In this document: piece after piece, positions 5,834 to 59,659 of the stretch | Layout of the letters: the number at the start of each line of letters is the position of its first letter | Numbering within the stretch: position 1 is the stretch's first letter | Assembly (NCBI GenBank): GCA_024654575.1 | Contig: JANLHG010000020.1 | Span: forward strand, 121,991 to 181,649 | Direction of reading: 5' to 3' | Length of the DNA stretch: 59,659 nucleotides | Source: Patescibacteria group bacterium | Lineage (GTDB): Bacteria > Patescibacteriota > Minisyncoccia > Phycocordibacterales > PALSA-1337 | Notes under the pieces: generated by a model | Databases searched by the model: none | What the model was told of the DNA's origin: nothing | Seen by the model: only the letters and a program-made list of their open reading frames with translations | Translations under genes and position numbers: made by a program

Positions 5834-5905
5834 GGCCCTATCGTCTATCGGTTAGGACACATCCTTCTCAAGGATGGAAGCGGAGTTCGACTCTCCGTAG
5901 GGTCA
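5834..5905 (+). tRNA. tRNA-Glu(CTC), CCA not encoded
   Basis: Acceptor GGCCCTA/TAGGGTC, anticodon arm CATCC-TTCTCAA-GGATG, T-arm GGAGTTCGACTCTCC. Confidence 0.95.
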
Positions 5906-22923: not shown

Positions 22924-23907
22924 TTATATTACTGAATTGACTGCGGGTTTACCTTCTAAAACATCAATAATATTTTGAGCGGAAAGACGAGCCATATCAA
23001 GACGGGCTTCATCAGTCGCGGAAGCAATATGGGGAGTAAGAACAACATTAGGAAGTTCGGCAAGACCTTTTGCTAAAGTTGGTTCAAATTCGTAGACATC
23101 AAGTCCTGCACCAGCGATAATTTTATTTTGTAAAGCAGAAACAAGAGCATTCTCATCTAATACTGGCCCACGAGAAGTATTTACTAAATAAGCAGTTTTT
23201 TTCATCAAATTAAAACGAGTTTCATTCATAAGATGATGAGTGTCTTCAGTAAGTGGAACATGAATTGAAACCACATCAGCAATTTTTAGGACTTCTTCAA
23301 CTGTAGAATAAAAAGTTGCTCCAAAGCCTGCCTGCGCAGGCAGGTCTTTTTCTATTTTTTCATTTCGGACGATATCATAGTAAATAACATTCATCATAAA
23401 ACCATTTTTTGCTCGATGAGCTACATCCGCTCCGATACGACCAGTACCAATAATTCCTAAGGTTTTTCCAGCCAATTTTGTTCCATGTAAAAGCATCGGG
23501 TCCCAACCTTGATACTCTCCATTTCTCATATATTTATCCCCTTCTACAATTCTACAAGTCAGAGCGAGAATAAGTCCCCAAGTATGTTCAGCTACACGAT
23601 CAGCTCCTCCGCCGTGGGTATTAGTAAGCATCACATTCCGTTTTTTGGCATCTTCAGTATTAAAATTATTAAAACCGATAGCATAATTTGCAAAAATTTT
23701 TGCAGTGGGGCAAGCGTCCATAACTTCTCCATCAATCTGGTCAGTTAAAAGAGTCAGAACACCGTCATAAGGTTTTTTTCTTAATGCTTCTATTAATTCT
23801 TCTTTTGTAAGAGGTCTATCTTCAGAATTAATATCAACTTCAAAACCTTTATCTGTTAACATTTTTATTCCAACATCAGGAATTTGGCGAGTTATGTATA
23901 TTTTCAT
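22924..23907 (-). CDS. D-glycerate/2-hydroxyacid dehydrogenase
   Basis: GIIGTGRIG, VNTSRGPV, LDVYEFEP, TPHIASAT. Confidence 0.93.
   Translation of the reverse strand: MKIYITRQIPDVGIKMLTDKGFEVDINSEDRPLTKEELIEALRKKPYDGVLTLLTDQIDGEVMDACPTAKIFANYAIGFNNFNTEDAKKRNVMLTNTHGGGADRVAEHTWGLILALTCRIVEGDKYMRNGEYQGWDPMLLHGTKLAGKTLGIIGTGRIGADVAHRAKNGFMMNVIYYDIVRNEKIEKDLPAQAGFGATFYSTVEEVLKIADVVSIHVPLTEDTHHLMNETRFNLMKKTAYLVNTSRGPVLDENALVSALQNKIIAGAGLDVYEFEPTLAKGLAELPNVVLTPHIASATDEARLDMARLSAQNIIDVLEGKPAVNSVI
23327..23344. repeat. 18-bp perfect palindrome inserted in-frame (LPAQAG)
   Basis: CCTGCCTGCGCAGGCAGG equals its own reverse complement; removing it leaves EKDFGA in frame. Confidence 0.85.
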
Positions 23908-28341: not shown

Positions 28342-28797
28342 TTATTTATCTATTTTTTCTATTCTACGAATATGTCTTTCTTCTTTACTAAAAGGAGTGT
28401 TGAGCCAAAATAAAACGGCACCTTTCGCTTCTTCAACAGACATAAATCTCGCACCAAGAGAAAGAATATTTGCATCATTATCATGACGAGAAGATTTTAA
28501 AATATCTTTTATTCCTCCATAATATACCGCTGTACGAATTCCTTTTACACGATTTGCTACCATAGCTTCTCCTTGTCCTGAGCCACCAATAATAATTCCA
28601 CGGCAATGCTCAAGGTCGCCCGCCACTTGGCGGGCGACTGGATAAATAAAATCTGGATAATCATCTAATTCATTTTTTTGTTCAGCTCCTTTATCAATAA
28701 TCACATAACCAATTTCAGTCAAATACTTTTTAAGTTCTTCTTTTAATTCAAACCCCGCATGATCCGCTCCAATAATAATAGTTTTTATATTCTCCAT
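28342..28797 (-). CDS. rpiB: Ribose-5-phosphate isomerase B
   Basis: GADHAGF, DYPD, GGSGQGE, HNDANIL, RRIEKI. Confidence 0.93.
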   Translation of the reverse strand: MENIKTIIIGADHAGFELKEELKKYLTEIGYVIIDKGAEQKNELDDYPDFIYPVARQVAGDLEHCRGIIIGGSGQGEAMVANRVKGIRTAVYYGGIKDILKSSRHDNDANILSLGARFMSVEEAKGAVLFWLNTPFSKEERHIRRIEKIDK

Positions 28798-32206: not shown

Positions 32207-32219
32207 AAATTTTTACCGG

Positions 32220-32292
32220 AGCCGCCTCTCGGACTCGAACCGAGGACCTTCGCTTTACAAAAGCGTTGCTCTACCAACTGAGCTAAGGCGGC
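32220..32292 (-). tRNA. tRNA-Thr(TGT), CCA not encoded
   Basis: GCCGCCT acceptor, AGCTCAGTTGGTAGAGC D-arm, CGCT-TTTGTAA-AGCG, GGTTCGAGTCC. Confidence 0.95.
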
Positions 32293-32296
32293 TTGT

Positions 32297-32533
32297 TTAT
32301 ATTCTTTTTTTTAAGTAACTTCTACCAAATCCTGTTTTTAAAGATTTTTCTCTTTCAATTGCTTTTTTCTTATCACGACATGCTTCATAATACATTAATT
32401 TAAAAGGACGTCTATTCTTTGTTATCTTAACTAATCCACTATTATGTTCCTCTATACGCTTTTTAAGGTTAGAAGAAAATCCTATATAAAGTTTATCATC
32501 TTTCTCACTTTTTAAAACATAAGTATAAAACAT
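32297..32533 (-). CDS. Stand-alone GIY-YIG endonuclease (78 aa)
   Basis: YTYVL..LYIGFSSNL..R..EHN, RRPF, A..REK.LK. Confidence 0.93.
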   Translation of the reverse strand: MFYTYVLKSEKDDKLYIGFSSNLKKRIEEHNSGLVKITKNRRPFKLMYYEACRDKKKAIEREKSLKTGFGRSYLKKRI

Positions 32534-32551
32534 AACTTTCTACATATAGAC

Positions 32552-32607
32552 ACCAACTCCTGCCCGCAATGCTTCGCATAGCGATGCAGGCGGGGAGCTA
32601 AGGCGGC
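32552..32607 (-). repeat. Duplicate of tRNA-Thr nt 1-20 interrupted by a 36-bp palindromic element (32559-32594)
   Basis: GCCGCCTTAGCTC[CCCGCCTGCATCGCTATGCGAAGCATTGCGGGCAGG]AGTTGGT; the flanks match the tRNA 5' end exactly. Confidence 0.9.
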
Positions 32608-32626
32608 AATATTTAATGTAACAATT

Positions 32627-33034
32627 TTACAATGTGTTATTACTTCTCTTACTTTCCTCCACAATGTGTTTGAGGAAAAAAGAGACCGACCCTTTCCTCT
32701 TTATCACACCTTTGCCGAGAACCATATTAATAGGACTAGATGGTTTATTTTCCAAGTGTTTTTTAATTACTTGTTTTAATTTCATATAAAGTTTATGACA
32801 AGCGAGCAACACATGATAAATTATAAACCTTCCAAGAAGTATTGCGTTGCGTTTATTAACAAAAGAAAAAGTAATCTTAATTTTAGCAATTTGATTATGA
32901 ATTACATGGTTAGTATTGTCGCTTATTTTACTGAGAATAGATTTTTTACCAGTCTTAGCTTCAATAAGTTTCGTAACAAACATTATAATAATGCCAGCAA
33001 GTGATATTATGAGAAATATTGTTGCAGTGTTCAT
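32627..33034 (-). CDS. Hypothetical membrane-anchored protein
   Basis: N-terminal hydrophobic helix, Lys-rich. Confidence 0.7.
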   Translation of the reverse strand: MNTATIFLIISLAGIIIMFVTKLIEAKTGKKSILSKISDNTNHVIHNQIAKIKITFSFVNKRNAILLGRFIIYHVLLACHKLYMKLKQVIKKHLENKPSSPINMVLGKGVIKRKGSVSFFLKHIVEESKRSNNTL

Positions 33035-33039
33035 AATTA

Positions 33040-33498
33040 TTATTCTTTAACATCGTAACGTGAATAATTTGATAATTCTATTTTTTCTCCAAATTTTTGA
33101 GAAGCTGAATCAATCAGATTTTTTATAGTCATTTCTGGATTTTTAATAAATGATTGTCCCAAAAGAACATCAATTGATTCTGATTTCATAGCCGTAATAT
33201 GCATAGCGATATCATGTGCAAGTTTTATAAATTCTTCATTACCAGATACGAAATCTGTCTCCGAACGCAATACCAAAATAGTACCTGAAGTACCATTATT
33301 ATGGATATAAGAAGAAACCGTACCTGCTTTTAATTCCCTATCCATTTTTTTATTTGCAAACTCAACACTCTTTTCTTGCAAAAAAACAATAGCTTTTTCT
33401 GTATCACCGCCAGTTTCTTCAAGGGCTTTTCTGCATTGCATAATAGATACGCCGGTTTTGTCACGTAATATTTTTATTTGTTCTGCAGTTATATTCAT
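33040..33498 (-). CDS. tsf: Elongation factor Ts (short form)
   Basis: LRDKTGVSIMQCRKAL, SETDFV; downstream of rpsB. Confidence 0.95.
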   Translation of the reverse strand: MNITAEQIKILRDKTGVSIMQCRKALEETGGDTEKAIVFLQEKSVEFANKKMDRELKAGTVSSYIHNNGTSGTILVLRSETDFVSGNEEFIKLAHDIAMHITAMKSESIDVLLGQSFIKNPEMTIKNLIDSASQKFGEKIELSNYSRYDVKE

Positions 33499-37091: not shown

Positions 37092-37308
37092 GCGATTTTA
37101 GCTCCCGCAAAATCGCTCCGTTTTCTTAATTCCGACAATGTTTCGTTTGGTGGTGTTTGTTTGAAAAAGTCAGAACCCATTTTGCAGAGAACCCTGAAAA
37201 CTAAAATGGACTCGGCAGGGCGAAACAATTTGTCTGGGGTTTCGGATTCGCCCTGCCTCGGCTGATTTCCCGCCCGCAGGAGGGGTCTAGGGAGGAATGC
37301 GGGCGGGA
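37092..37308. other. GC-rich multi-hairpin att-like region
   Basis: Inverted repeats 37092-37099/37109-37116 (8 bp), 37214-37224/37247-37257 (11 bp), 37268-37278/37298-37308 (11 bp). Confidence 0.6.
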
Positions 37309-37352
37309 TTCGGACTGGGGGTTTTCGGAAATTCGGCGGCATCCATACAGAA

Positions 37353-38403: not shown

Positions 38404-38504
38404 TTCACGACCCTGGCTCACCATCACATCTGCTGATGCGATATGGCTCCGCCTTCCACAAAATCGAAAAAATTTGCCTCAAGGCATATTTGTTTCGTAT
38501 TTTG

Positions 38505-47706: not shown

Positions 47707-47724
47707 GTCCCGCCGAGGCGGGAC
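47707..47724. repeat. 18-bp GC palindrome (REP-like)
   Basis: GTCCCGCC-GA-GGCGGGAC in an AT-rich intergenic region. Confidence 0.75.
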
Positions 47725-47793
47725 CTAACGTCTTTTGTTTTTGAATACTAACAACATTAATACTCACACAATATGTATGCTAGCAAAAATAAA

Positions 47794-58899: not shown

Positions 58900-58940
58900 A
58901 AGAAGTCAAGAGAGACAAGCCCTCAAGAGTTCAAGAATCA

Positions 58941-59657
58941 CTACTTCCTGGCAGCCGACAAGCCGATGCTGTCATGGCGGTAGTCGTCGCTCCAGCCGCC
59001 GATGAAGAGACCCTTGGCATCGAAGCCGCCGACGTGGACGCGGTGACCGTCCGAGCCGAGATCGACACAGCGAGCGTAGACCTTCTCGAGCAAACGTTCC
59101 TCAGTGGCGAGAAAGAGGCCGACCATGGTGTAAACCATTATCCGAGCAGTCGGCGTTTCCTCGTCTTTCGAGAGGAGTTCCTGCTGTTCGTTCCACGTCT
59201 TCGAGGTCGAGTTGGCGATAGGTTCCTTACGGACCAACTGCCAGCCGACTTCGCCCTTGTCCTTGGCAAACGCCTGCTTGTCATACCAGTCCTGTGAGTA
59301 AAACAGGGTCTGGTCGGACTGCTTCTTGACGATGCCACGGATGTCGAGGATCGACAGCGGGAACACGGCGACGAGAATGTGAGTGTCCTTGCAGGACTTC
59401 AGCACTTCCTCGCTGAACGGAACCTCGGACAAGTAGGCGAGCTGTTGCTTCGAATGGTTAACCCCGAAGTGTCTGATCGCTTCCTCGATACCAAAGTAGT
59501 TCGTGCCCATGATCTCGCGAGCGAGTTTCTGCGACGTCGACGGATCGTATCCGCCATTAGCCATGAATCGTGCGATGTTCGCCACGAACAGAGGGTCGGT
59601 GTTGATCCGAGTTGCAACTTCGTCGGCGTTCTCACCGACTGCAACCCAGAGACGTTG
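58941..59657 (-). CDS. 5'-truncated GC-rich gene; probable C-type-lectin-fold DGR target protein
   Basis: Frame stays open to the window edge (QRLWVAVGEN...); C-terminus HRVHVGGFDAKGLFIGGWSDDYRHDSIGLSAARK built mainly from NNC codons. Confidence 0.7.
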   Translation of the reverse strand, partial: QRLWVAVGENADEVATRINTDPLFVANIARFMANGGYDPSTSQKLAREIMGTNYFGIEEAIRHFGVNHSKQQLAYLSEVPFSEEVLKSCKDTHILVAVFPLSILDIRGIVKKQSDQTLFYSQDWYDKQAFAKDKGEVGWQLVRKEPIANSTSKTWNEQQELLSKDEETPTARIMVYTMVGLFLATEERLLEKVYARCVDLGSDGHRVHVGGFDAKGLFIGGWSDDYRHDSIGLSAARK

Positions 59658-59659
59658 GC

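What the first reader, a model, noticed from the sequence alone, without database searches (positions are those of the whole stretch)
32559..32594. 36-bp palindromic element inserted without target duplication into the dead tRNA fragment next to the nuclease
Seen: CCTGCCCGC-AATGCTTCGCATAGCGAT-GCAGGCGGG. Because the target is a known tRNA sequence, the insertion point is defined to about 1 bp and there is no target-site duplication. Its arms resemble the 18-mer CCTGCCTGC/GCAGGCAGG at 23327 and the CCCGCC/GGCGGG core at 47709. It is 36 nt and stop-free (PARNASHSDAGG / PACIAMRSIAGR). Inference: the adjacent GIY-YIG protein could be the mobiliser or recogniser of these palindromes, by analogy to RAYT transposases and REPs.
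Basis: partly seen in the sequence, partly recalled or inferred. Interest (0 to 1): 0.65.

Follow-up and report, generated by a model that had tools for sequence, protein, structure and literature searches.

The report
Mobile palindrome beside tRNA-targeting GIY-YIG gene
The 36-bp palindrome is one copy of a very abundant mobile mini-element of CPR/Patescibacteria that also sits in frame inside housekeeping genes, and it recurs next to small GIY-YIG nuclease genes that lodge at tRNA genes, which makes that nuclease a testable candidate for its driver.

Summary
The 36-mer at 32559-32594 lies exactly between nt 13 and 14 of a 20-nt leftover 5' piece of tRNA-Thr, with no target duplication and no loss. 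Downstream lie a 78-aa GIY-YIG gene and the intact tRNA-Thr.

It is not a lone oddity. The layout [tRNA 5' piece + palindrome + GIY-YIG gene + intact tRNA] recurs in 40 related loci at tRNAs of 12 amino-acid identities. These share the same ends, occur in both orientations, and can be nested or tandem.

Only 6 of the 127 copies lie next to a GIY-YIG gene. About half lie inside housekeeping genes. There, 91% have lengths divisible by three, and 75% share one phase that reads PARNA(S/T)HS(D/V)AGG.

In the other direction the link is strong. GC-rich palindromes are 19-fold enriched beside these GIY-YIG genes, including one locus with no tRNA.

The protein is a minimal Slx1/UPF0213-type nuclease under purifying selection. 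Orthologous loci show that the gene travels with its own tRNA and splits the resident one.

The RAYT/REP analogy is partly supported. Mobilisation by the nuclease is plausible but unproven, and nuclease clade does not co-vary with palindrome type. The hairpins at 23327 and 47709 are ordinary terminators.

The parts
32559..32594 (.). PAL: 36-bp GC-rich imperfect palindrome, a copy of a dispersed mobile family. On the strand of the GIY-YIG ORF and tRNA it reads CCCGCCTGC...GCGGGCAGG ('form A').
   Evidence: Ends are confirmed by metagenome contigs that break at 32559 and 32594. The sequence is identical to the second most common variant, 25 of 127 copies.
32595..32607 (-). Remnant of tRNA-Thr, nt 1-13 (GCCGCCTTAGCTC), upstream of the palindrome on the minus strand.
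   Evidence: 13/13 identical to the intact tRNA-Thr 5' end.
32552..32558 (-). Remnant of tRNA-Thr, nt 14-20 (AGTTGGT), continuing directly after the palindrome.
   Evidence: 7/7 identical to the intact tRNA.
32297..32533 (-). 78-aa stand-alone GIY-YIG nuclease gene (Slx1/UPF0213-type). Its ATG lies 18 nt after the remnant and its stop lies 4 nt before the tRNA.
   Evidence: Pfam PF01541 at E = 4e-18. PDB 1ZG2 (UPF0213 protein) at E = 2.4e-5. 79/80 homologous ORFs are intact and dN/dS is 0.1-0.5.
32218..32292 (-). Intact tRNA-Thr(tgt), the functional copy that follows the nuclease gene.
   Evidence: ARAGORN. Rfam tRNA at 68.9 bits.

Best explanation
SHOWN. The 36-mer is a copy of a large family of 36/39-bp GC-rich hairpin elements ('PAL') that are mobile DNA in CPR/Patescibacteria. 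Copies have fixed ends and insert cleanly without target duplication. They occur in either orientation, nested in one another, in tandem, in dead tRNA pieces, and in frame in housekeeping genes. In the window the copy sits in the leftover 5' piece of a tRNA-Thr gene. That piece was displaced when a cassette carrying a minimal Slx1/UPF0213-type GIY-YIG nuclease gene settled at the tRNA. In orthologous loci the cassette brings its own tRNA-Thr and splits the resident one, much as phage T4 SegB spreads itself together with tRNA genes. The nuclease gene has no room for its own promoter and is most likely read from the tRNA promoter.

INFERRED. The nuclease, which is too small to carry a DNA-binding domain and is related to structure-specific Slx1, nicks or cuts structured DNA. 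It would act preferentially near its own gene, for example at tRNA D/T-arm hairpins and PAL loops. Resident PAL copies would then be copied into such breaks. On this reading the nuclease gene is the trans-acting driver of an otherwise non-autonomous palindrome family. The copy beside it would be a cis by-product that also breaks up the tRNA repeat or target in the remnant. Solo copies persist in genes mainly when they fall in the phase that encodes the benign peptide PARNA(S/T)HS(D/V)AGG.
For: Recurrent layout. 42 ORF units in 40 loci have [tRNA nt 1..i][PAL][tRNA i+1..i+j][ORF][intact tRNA] at tRNAs of 12 amino-acid identities, with i = 6-22 and no TSD. Arm orientation relative to the ORF is 13 'A' versus 11 'B'. 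No locus has an uninterrupted 5' remnant.

Enrichment. There are 1.38 PAL-like hairpins per kb within -150/+130 bp of the ORFs versus 0.072 per kb elsewhere in the same loci. L201 has the ORF after glyS, no tRNA, and a PAL 12 nt downstream.

Mobility of PAL. Contigs break at the element ends, and nested and tandem forms occur. There is no TSD and no target motif. The inner stem is kept by compensatory changes, with four Watson-Crick pair types at each of two positions.

Coding copies. 116 of 127 lengths are divisible by 3. 50 of 67 copies in long ORFs share one strand and phase. Hosts include Aminotran_5, dTDP-glucose dehydratase and CTP synthase domains. The peptide is an insertion relative to the window's own GyrB.

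Cassette with tRNA. In L209, which is orthologous (tsf - small ORF - GIY-YIG - tRNA-Thr), the window-type tRNA is split into nt 1-26 (with PAL at 13|14) and nt ~44-76 around the ORF plus a different tRNA-Thr. L217 has PAL at 9|10 in the opposite orientation and another PAL in the T-loop of the 3' remnant. L085 is a dead tRNA-Thr with PALs in both its D- and T-loops.

Nuclease. It is of UPF0213 type. Prokaryotic stand-alone GIY-YIG proteins are grouped with Slx1 in PMC1564403. The ORFs are intact and under purifying selection.

Precedent. T4 SegB is a GIY-YIG enzyme in a tRNA cluster. It recognises the tRNA T-psi-C motif and spreads its own gene together with neighbouring tRNA genes (PMC2330249).
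Against: Only 6 of 127 PAL copies lie within 150 bp of a GIY-YIG ORF. ORF similarity does not track PAL arm type, so there is no sign of specific co-evolution. GIY-YIG enzymes are hydrolytic nucleases with no known strand-transfer activity, so another activity must copy or ligate the element. Solo insertion sites show only a weak structural bias: 69% unpaired versus 53% in controls, and no excess in hairpin loops. No genome-wide co-occurrence test could be run, and no RNA or biochemical data exist.
Confidence: 0.5

Rival explanations
1. Two independent selfish elements. PAL is spread by some other enzyme or by host break repair. The GIY-YIG gene is only a tRNA-directed homing cassette. PAL is seen beside it because remnants are neutral ground. 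A PAL also stabilises the cassette by interrupting the 15-30-bp direct repeat (or the nuclease target) formed by remnant and tRNA, so only PAL-bearing cassettes survive (survivorship).
For: 95% of copies are solo. There is no covariation between ORF clade and PAL type; PAL type seems to follow the host lineage. No uninterrupted remnant is ever seen, as expected if such remnants are lost together with the ORF. At one orthologous locus PAL was inserted at least twice independently, at 13|14 in form A and at 9|10 in form B. Dead tRNAs without any ORF nearby also carry PALs (L085, L086, L112).
Against: ORF-PAL adjacency also holds where there is no tRNA repeat to interrupt (L201) and where PAL lies between ORF and tRNA (L017, L051, L058, L066). 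Only about 8% of PAL copies are near tRNA-like DNA, so a general preference for tRNA does not explain roughly 80% occupancy beside the ORFs.
Confidence: 0.3
2. PAL beside the gene works at the RNA level for the cassette. A stable hairpin in the 5' or 3' untranslated region would protect or process the GIY-YIG mRNA, which is read from the tRNA promoter and released by RNase P. Copies near the gene would be retained by selection on the cassette.
For: The ATG lies 0-36 nt after the remnant in most loci, so the ORF is probably co-transcribed with the tRNA. PAL lies within about 50 nt of either ORF end. A sister clade has ORFs bracketed by covarying 13-17-bp inverted repeats. Hairpin pairing is conserved by compensatory changes.
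Against: Both orientations occur about equally (13 vs 11), although the element is asymmetric (AATGC bulge, CCTG tail). The same element is overwhelmingly found far from any such gene, including inside coding sequence. It matches no Rfam family. No terminator-like T-run follows it.
Confidence: 0.12
3. An ordinary chance palindrome or an intrinsic terminator of the upstream 135-aa ORF, with no mobility.
For: It lies 32 nt after the stop of the ORF at 32627-33034. Other GC-rich hairpins in the window are terminators.
Against: No T-run follows it and the terminator scan finds no hit. The identical 36-mer occurs in at least 25 unrelated contexts, and the family in at least 127. It splits a recognisable tRNA sequence exactly.
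Confidence: 0.02

Closest known systems
Rickettsia palindromic elements (RPE; Ogata et al. 2000, from my own knowledge)
   Same: Both are short palindromic selfish DNA in a reduced, AT-rich bacterial genome. Both are found intergenically and in frame inside conserved protein genes, where they are translated as an extra peptide in one preferred phase.
   Different: PAL is 36/39 bp, whereas RPEs are about 100-150 bp. The sequences are unrelated and the phylum differs (CPR). PAL is GC-rich in an AT-rich genome, is found in dead tRNA pieces, and has a strong local association with a nuclease gene.
REP/REPIN elements and RAYT (HUH Y1) transposases
   Same: A numerous short imperfect palindrome family sits alongside a small single-domain nuclease gene that is itself flanked by copies of the palindrome. 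The proposed relation is non-autonomous element plus trans-acting enzyme.
   Different: The enzyme here is GIY-YIG, not HUH/Y1. PAL is often intragenic, whereas REPs are extragenic. The gene has one adjacent copy on either side rather than inverted pairs. No co-variation of enzyme clade and repeat type was found. The nuclease gene is multi-copy and tied to tRNA genes.
Phage T4 SegB and other free-standing GIY-YIG homing endonucleases (PMC2330249)
   Same: A GIY-YIG gene is lodged among or next to tRNA genes, and it spreads its own gene together with adjacent tRNA DNA. SegB recognises a conserved tRNA motif (T-psi-C arm). In CPR loci the cassette carries its own tRNA and leaves pieces of the resident one (L209).
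   Different: The CPR protein has 78 aa and is a catalytic domain only. It is closest to UPF0213/Slx1-like proteins and has no DNA-binding extension. It is chromosomal in bacteria, not in a phage. Its cleavage specificity is unknown. SegB has no associated palindrome family.
Prokaryotic Slx1-like / UPF0213 stand-alone GIY-YIG proteins (PDB 1ZG2, 1YWL; PMC1564403)
   Same: Sequence-level relatives and the same minimal architecture. Eukaryotic Slx1 is a structure-specific nuclease for branched or hairpin DNA (own knowledge), which fits a hairpin substrate.
   Different: No function or mobile context has been assigned to UPF0213 proteins. The tRNA-adjacent, palindrome-associated arrangement has not been described, to my knowledge or in the searchable literature.
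GC clusters and double-hairpin elements of fungal mitochondria, and the mobile endonuclease insertion in Allomyces atp6 (own knowledge)
   Same: GC-rich palindromes invade an AT-rich genome, including coding sequence. Endonuclease-gene insertions bring a replacement gene segment and leave the displaced original piece as a pseudogene.
   Different: Those cases are organellar, and the sequences and enzymes are unrelated. GC clusters are usually described with short target duplications, whereas PAL shows none.
IS200/IS605-derived palindrome-associated elements (PATEs)
   Same: Insertion without TSD and hairpin-forming ends.
   Different: No Y1 transposase is present. No conserved target tetranucleotide was found. 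PAL is a single 36-bp hairpin rather than two different end hairpins.

Membership tests
GIY-YIG nuclease superfamily, stand-alone Slx1/UPF0213 branch | GIY-YIG catalytic domain detectable by profile | tested here: met
   PF01541 at E = 4e-18, covering residues 1-70.
GIY-YIG nuclease superfamily, stand-alone Slx1/UPF0213 branch | Conserved catalytic-core residues (Tyr of motif 1, Y-x-G of motif 2, Arg, Glu) retained across homologues | tested here: met
   FYTYVL, Y16/G18, R26, H30 and YYEAC (E50) are >=90% conserved among 80 ORFs.
GIY-YIG nuclease superfamily, stand-alone Slx1/UPF0213 branch | Closest solved relatives are UPF0213 proteins, and there are no auxiliary domains | tested here: met
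   1ZG2 at E = 2.4e-5 and 1YWL at E = 0.0029. The protein has 78 aa in total.
GIY-YIG nuclease superfamily, stand-alone Slx1/UPF0213 branch | Nuclease activity and substrate (structure-specific?) | not testable with these tools
   Needs biochemistry.
Free-standing homing endonuclease (SegB-like) | Endonuclease gene lies between genes and moves with flanking DNA; occupied loci show replaced or duplicated target segments | tested here: met
   L209 and L217 have the resident tRNA-Thr split around the ORF plus a second tRNA-Thr. The ORF occurs at tRNAs of 12 amino-acid identities. ORFs are 70-86% identical across many CPR lineages.
Free-standing homing endonuclease (SegB-like) | Site-specific cleavage of the unoccupied allele | not testable with these tools
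   No clean empty allele was recovered. The joints are ambiguous.
Free-standing homing endonuclease (SegB-like) | Separate DNA-binding domain that gives long-site specificity | tested here: not met
   Only the 78-aa catalytic domain is present.
REP/RAYT system | Associated enzyme is an HUH Y1 (IS200-like) transposase | tested here: not met
   The only adjacent enzyme is GIY-YIG.
REP/RAYT system | Repeats are extragenic | tested here: not met
   67 of 127 copies lie inside long ORFs.
REP/RAYT system | Enzyme gene is flanked by the repeat, and repeat type co-varies with enzyme clade | tested here: inconclusive
   Adjacency is met. Co-variation was not seen.
RPE-like in-frame palindromic elements | Palindromic repeat inserted in frame in conserved protein genes and read through in a preferred phase | tested here: met
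RPE-like in-frame palindromic elements | Sequence homology to Rickettsia RPE families | not tested
   Length (36 vs >100 bp) and host phylum differ. No RPE sequences were at hand.
MITE (non-autonomous DDE-type transposon) | Target-site duplication flanking terminal inverted repeats | tested here: not met
   No TSD in 42 tRNA-remnant insertions. In 122 other contexts, 79 show 0 nt, and the rest are mostly 1-2 nt, about what chance gives (my estimate).
IS200/IS605-type single-strand elements | Insertion 3' of a conserved 4-5-nt target | tested here: not met
   There is no flank motif beyond a mild excess of A at -1.
Described RNA family (Rfam) | Match to a covariance model | tested here: not met
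   No hit on the element at gathering threshold or at E <= 1.

The most novel reading that the evidence does not exclude
A minimal Slx1-like GIY-YIG nuclease, parked at tRNA genes and spread horizontally together with a tRNA, drives a previously undescribed class of TSD-less hairpin elements. These elements colonise CPR genomes and are written in frame into essential proteins. This would be a nuclease-plus-hairpin transposition system that uses none of the known transposase chemistries (DDE, HUH, Ser/Tyr).
Probability: 0.3. Interest if true: 0.9.

Novelty: new variant of a known kind. Interest (0 to 1): 0.75.

Why it matters
If the reading is right, CPR/Patescibacteria carry a phylum-wide family of tiny palindromic parasites. 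These insert a 12-13-residue peptide into core enzymes such as GyrB, ClpB, IF-2, aminoacyl-tRNA synthetases and CTP synthase. That affects annotation, protein alignments, phylogenies and structural models of these organisms, and it adds a second clear case, after Rickettsia, of selfish DNA translated inside essential genes.

The tight local link to a 78-aa nuclease gives the widespread UPF0213/Slx1-like stand-alone GIY-YIG proteins, which have no known function, a concrete and testable role. It also points to a possible mobilisation mechanism without a classical transposase.

The tRNA-replacing cassette is a bacterial counterpart of the phage SegB strategy. It may help explain tRNA gene turnover and horizontal transfer in CPR genomes.

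Tried and rejected
1. Exact-protein look-up of the window ORF found nothing on record.
2. Relatives of the palindrome elsewhere in the window: none at <=3 mismatches. A general GC-hairpin finder returned only two unrelated hairpins at 37214-37308. The hairpins at 23327 and 47709 are terminator-like.
3. RNA-family explanation: no Rfam match.
4. Intron-like removal of the element: rejected, because 91% of lengths are multiples of 3 and 75% of coding copies share one phase. That is what read-through predicts, not splicing.
5. TSD or target motif: none.
6. A preference of solo insertions for predicted DNA hairpin loops: not supported (27.5% vs 25.4%). There is only a modest excess of unpaired sites.
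7. Co-variation of ORF clade and palindrome type: none.
8. RNA evidence: no RNA run could be listed.
9. Empty allele of the window locus: the joints (32292 joined to about 33185-33437) come from distant relatives at 80% likeness, and I did not trust them.
10. RNAalifold on mixed 36/39-mers mis-registered the inner stem, so I counted pairs anchored on the ATA loop instead.
11. Literature: searches for the sequence and peptide strings, GIY-YIG + tRNA + CPR, RPE + CPR and UPF0213/YhbQ found nothing that describes this system.
12. I considered classical site-specific integration, staggered-cut TSD and SDSA homing models for the tRNA 5' duplication. None fits all loci. L209 shows that at least some events are insertions of an ORF+tRNA cassette into the resident tRNA.

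Full report
**1. The observation**

The 36-mer is at 32559-32594 and is unique in the window. Read on the minus strand, the locus is as follows:
- GCCGCCTTAGCTC (32607->32595);
- the 36-mer;
- AGTTGGT (32558->32552);
- 18 nt of spacer;
- a 78-aa ORF (32533->32297);
- 4 nt;
- the intact tRNA-Thr(tgt) (32292->32218).

The two short flanks equal nt 1-13 and 14-20 of that tRNA. The ORF is a GIY-YIG domain protein (Pfam E = 4e-18).

As single-stranded DNA the element folds at -12.5 kcal/mol (z = -3.65). The fold is a 12-bp interrupted stem with an ATA loop and a 4-nt tail.

They do not belong to the family.

**2. The layout recurs**

The ORF has hundreds of close homologues, 55-86% identical, in many CPR lineages. 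I fetched 80 loci from species-representative genomes. Homologues at >=62% identity almost always end 2-22 nt before a tRNA gene on the same strand.

A split alignment of the upstream DNA against the downstream tRNA shows 42 ORF units in 40 loci with this structure: [tRNA nt 1..i][GC-rich palindrome of 36-72 nt][tRNA nt i+1..i+j], a short spacer, the ORF, then the intact tRNA. The details are:
- tRNAs of 12 amino-acid identities are involved.
- i ranges from 6 to 22, and 9 is the commonest value.
- There is never a target duplication.
- For the window's arm type, orientation relative to the ORF is 13 versus 11.
- Palindromes nested inside palindromes occur (L005, L027, L033, L039, L217).
- No locus has a remnant without a palindrome.

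**3. The palindrome is an independent, very abundant mobile element**

Only 6 of these lie within 150 bp of a GIY-YIG ORF.

In four groundwater runs, 31-87 contigs per run match the element and diverge at 32559 and at 32594 (one run at 32596). The same runs show other palindromes inserted at its centre, and tandem copies. The window copy is identical to the second most common variant, which accounts for 25 of 127 copies.

The flanks show no duplication and no target motif. Around the conserved ATA loop, two variable stem positions keep Watson-Crick pairing with four pair types each (32/40 and 30/40 of unique variants). Selection therefore appears to act on the hairpin itself. No Rfam family matches the element.

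**4. It is written into proteins**

Lengths are 36 (84 copies) or 39 (32 copies) in 116 of 127 copies. 67 copies lie in long open frames. Of those, 50 share one strand and phase and read PARNA(S/T)HS(D/V)AGG, or PARNAFSIADAGG for 39-mers.

By inspection of the translated frames, the hosts are core genes: ClpB, GyrB, IF-2, LysRS, AlaRS, CTP synthase, cysteine desulfurase and dTDP-glucose dehydratase. Pfam domains run straight across the insert in the three hosts I scanned: cysteine desulfurase, dTDP-glucose dehydratase and CTP synthase. Against the window's own GyrB, the peptide appears as an extra segment.

This behaviour resembles that of the Rickettsia palindromic elements. Splicing-type removal is unlikely, given the length and phase bias.

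**5. The link to the nuclease gene**

Viewed from the gene side the link is strong. There are 1.38 GC-rich hairpins per kb within -150/+130 bp of the ORFs, versus 0.072 per kb in the rest of the same loci. 51 of 61 ORFs at >=62% identity have one.

The link does not depend on tRNA remnants. In L201 the ORF follows glyS, there is no tRNA, and a palindrome lies 12 nt after the stop. In several Lys-tRNA loci the palindrome lies between the ORF and the tRNA.

At the locus orthologous to the window (tsf - small ORF - GIY-YIG - tRNA-Thr), the palindrome is at 13|14 in one orientation in the window and in L209. In L217 it is at 9|10 in the other orientation, so it was acquired at least twice.

Two results count against a specific partnership. 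ORF similarity does not follow palindrome arm type, and 95% of copies are solo.

**6. The nuclease cassette**

The protein is a stand-alone catalytic domain. It is closest to the UPF0213 structures 1ZG2 and 1YWL. PMC1564403 groups these prokaryotic proteins with Slx1 as the minimal form of the fold. 79 of 80 ORFs are intact, core residues are conserved, and dN/dS is 0.1-0.5 with synonymous sites near saturation.

L209 is the key locus. A window-type tRNA-Thr is split into nt 1-26 (with the palindrome at 13|14) and nt ~44-76. Between the two pieces lie the ORF and a complete tRNA-Thr with a different acceptor stem. The cassette therefore carries its own tRNA and disrupts the resident one. Other loci keep 3' remnants downstream (L005, L021, L029). 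L217 has a palindrome in the T-loop of its 3' remnant. L085 is a dead tRNA-Thr with palindromes in both its D- and T-loops.

The precedent is T4 SegB. It is a GIY-YIG enzyme in a tRNA cluster that recognises the tRNA T-psi-C motif and spreads its own gene with the neighbouring tRNA genes (PMC2330249).

**7. Mechanism**

What is shown:
- a mobile, TSD-less hairpin family;
- a mobile GIY-YIG+tRNA cassette;
- a strong one-sided spatial association between the two.

What is inferred: the small, Slx1-like nuclease makes nicks or breaks in structured DNA, preferentially near its own gene, and resident palindromes are copied into those breaks. On this view the nuclease drives the family, and the copy beside it is a by-product that also breaks up the remnant-tRNA repeat. 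I put this at about 0.5.

The main rival, at 0.3, is that the two elements are independent and that only palindrome-interrupted cassettes survive. A role as an RNA hairpin for the cassette's mRNA is less likely (0.12), because both orientations of an asymmetric element are used about equally. A chance palindrome or terminator is excluded.

My test for a preference of solo insertions for hairpin loops was negative, apart from a modest excess of unpaired sites.

**8. Novelty and limits**

I found no paper that describes the element, its peptide, or the tRNA-linked GIY-YIG layout. The searchable library is open-access only.

The limits are these:
- The metagenome sample is selected by my pattern and capped.
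- Coding status rests on stop-free spans, plus Pfam checks on three hosts.
- Lineage labels come from record titles.
- No RNA, proteome or biochemical evidence is available.
- The genome-level co-occurrence test that would decide the driver question could not be run.

Noticed in passing
window 37100-37345: A GC-rich (about 41% vs 32%) intergenic stretch lies between a Fur-like regulator gene and a hydrolase gene. It holds two perfect GC-rich hairpins (37214-37257 and 37268-37308, the latter with CCCGCCCGC/GCGGGCGGG arms). There is no Rfam match at E <= 1. It could be an undescribed structured RNA or a diverged palindromic element.
   Followed up: partly
window 58900-59659: Composition jumps to roughly 58-60% GC. 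A 214-aa ORF on the minus strand (58941-59585) sits in this segment. It is either foreign (horizontally acquired) DNA or a chimeric contig end.
   Followed up: no
L057, L063-L065, L069-L071, L074, L077-L080 (around 1470-1760 in each): A sister clade of the GIY-YIG ORF (55-60% identical, not next to tRNAs) is bracketed by 13-17-bp inverted repeats. The repeats differ between loci but stay complementary (for example ATCCCGTTAGAGAT...ATCTCTAACGGGAT and ACCCTGTGTAATAA...TTATTACACAGGGT). The ORF thus sits in the loop of a large palindrome.
   Followed up: partly
L085:60-330 (reverse strand): A dead tRNA-Thr(tgt) copy carries two different palindromic elements, one in the D-loop and one in the T-loop, and has a degenerate 5' acceptor strand.
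   Followed up: partly
L112:10620-10680, L164:4760-4840, also L029 and L046: A second small hairpin type has a conserved loop (G[TA]AGCTTTAGCGAA) but arms that copy the local sequence, for example the complement of the tRNA-Ser 5' end. It is found next to tRNA remnants. This looks like fold-back (snap-back) repair synthesis.
   Followed up: no
L020:1000-1740: Two tandem GIY-YIG ORFs are only 73% identical in DNA, yet each is preceded by an identical 63-nt tRNA-Pro remnant plus palindrome. This suggests gene conversion or repeated regeneration of the remnant module.
   Followed up: partly
L109 (histidine kinase ORF, residues ~458-470 and ~575-590): One protein carries an intact palindrome-encoded peptide (PARNASGIADAGG) and a second, decayed one (GPARSASPSDAGG). 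Old copies therefore persist and drift inside genes.
   Followed up: no
L048:1735-1830: Downstream of the GIY-YIG ORF is a tRNA-like 5' half followed by a long insert in the anticodon region. It may be an intron-containing tRNA. ARAGORN calls no tRNA there.
   Followed up: no
window 23326-23345, 28594-28648, 47709-47734: GC-rich hairpins, the first and last of which are followed by T-runs; all three are probably ordinary intrinsic terminators. The window also holds a single GIY-YIG gene, and neither of the other two tRNA genes (Glu at 5834, Ala at 38504) has one.
   Followed up: yes
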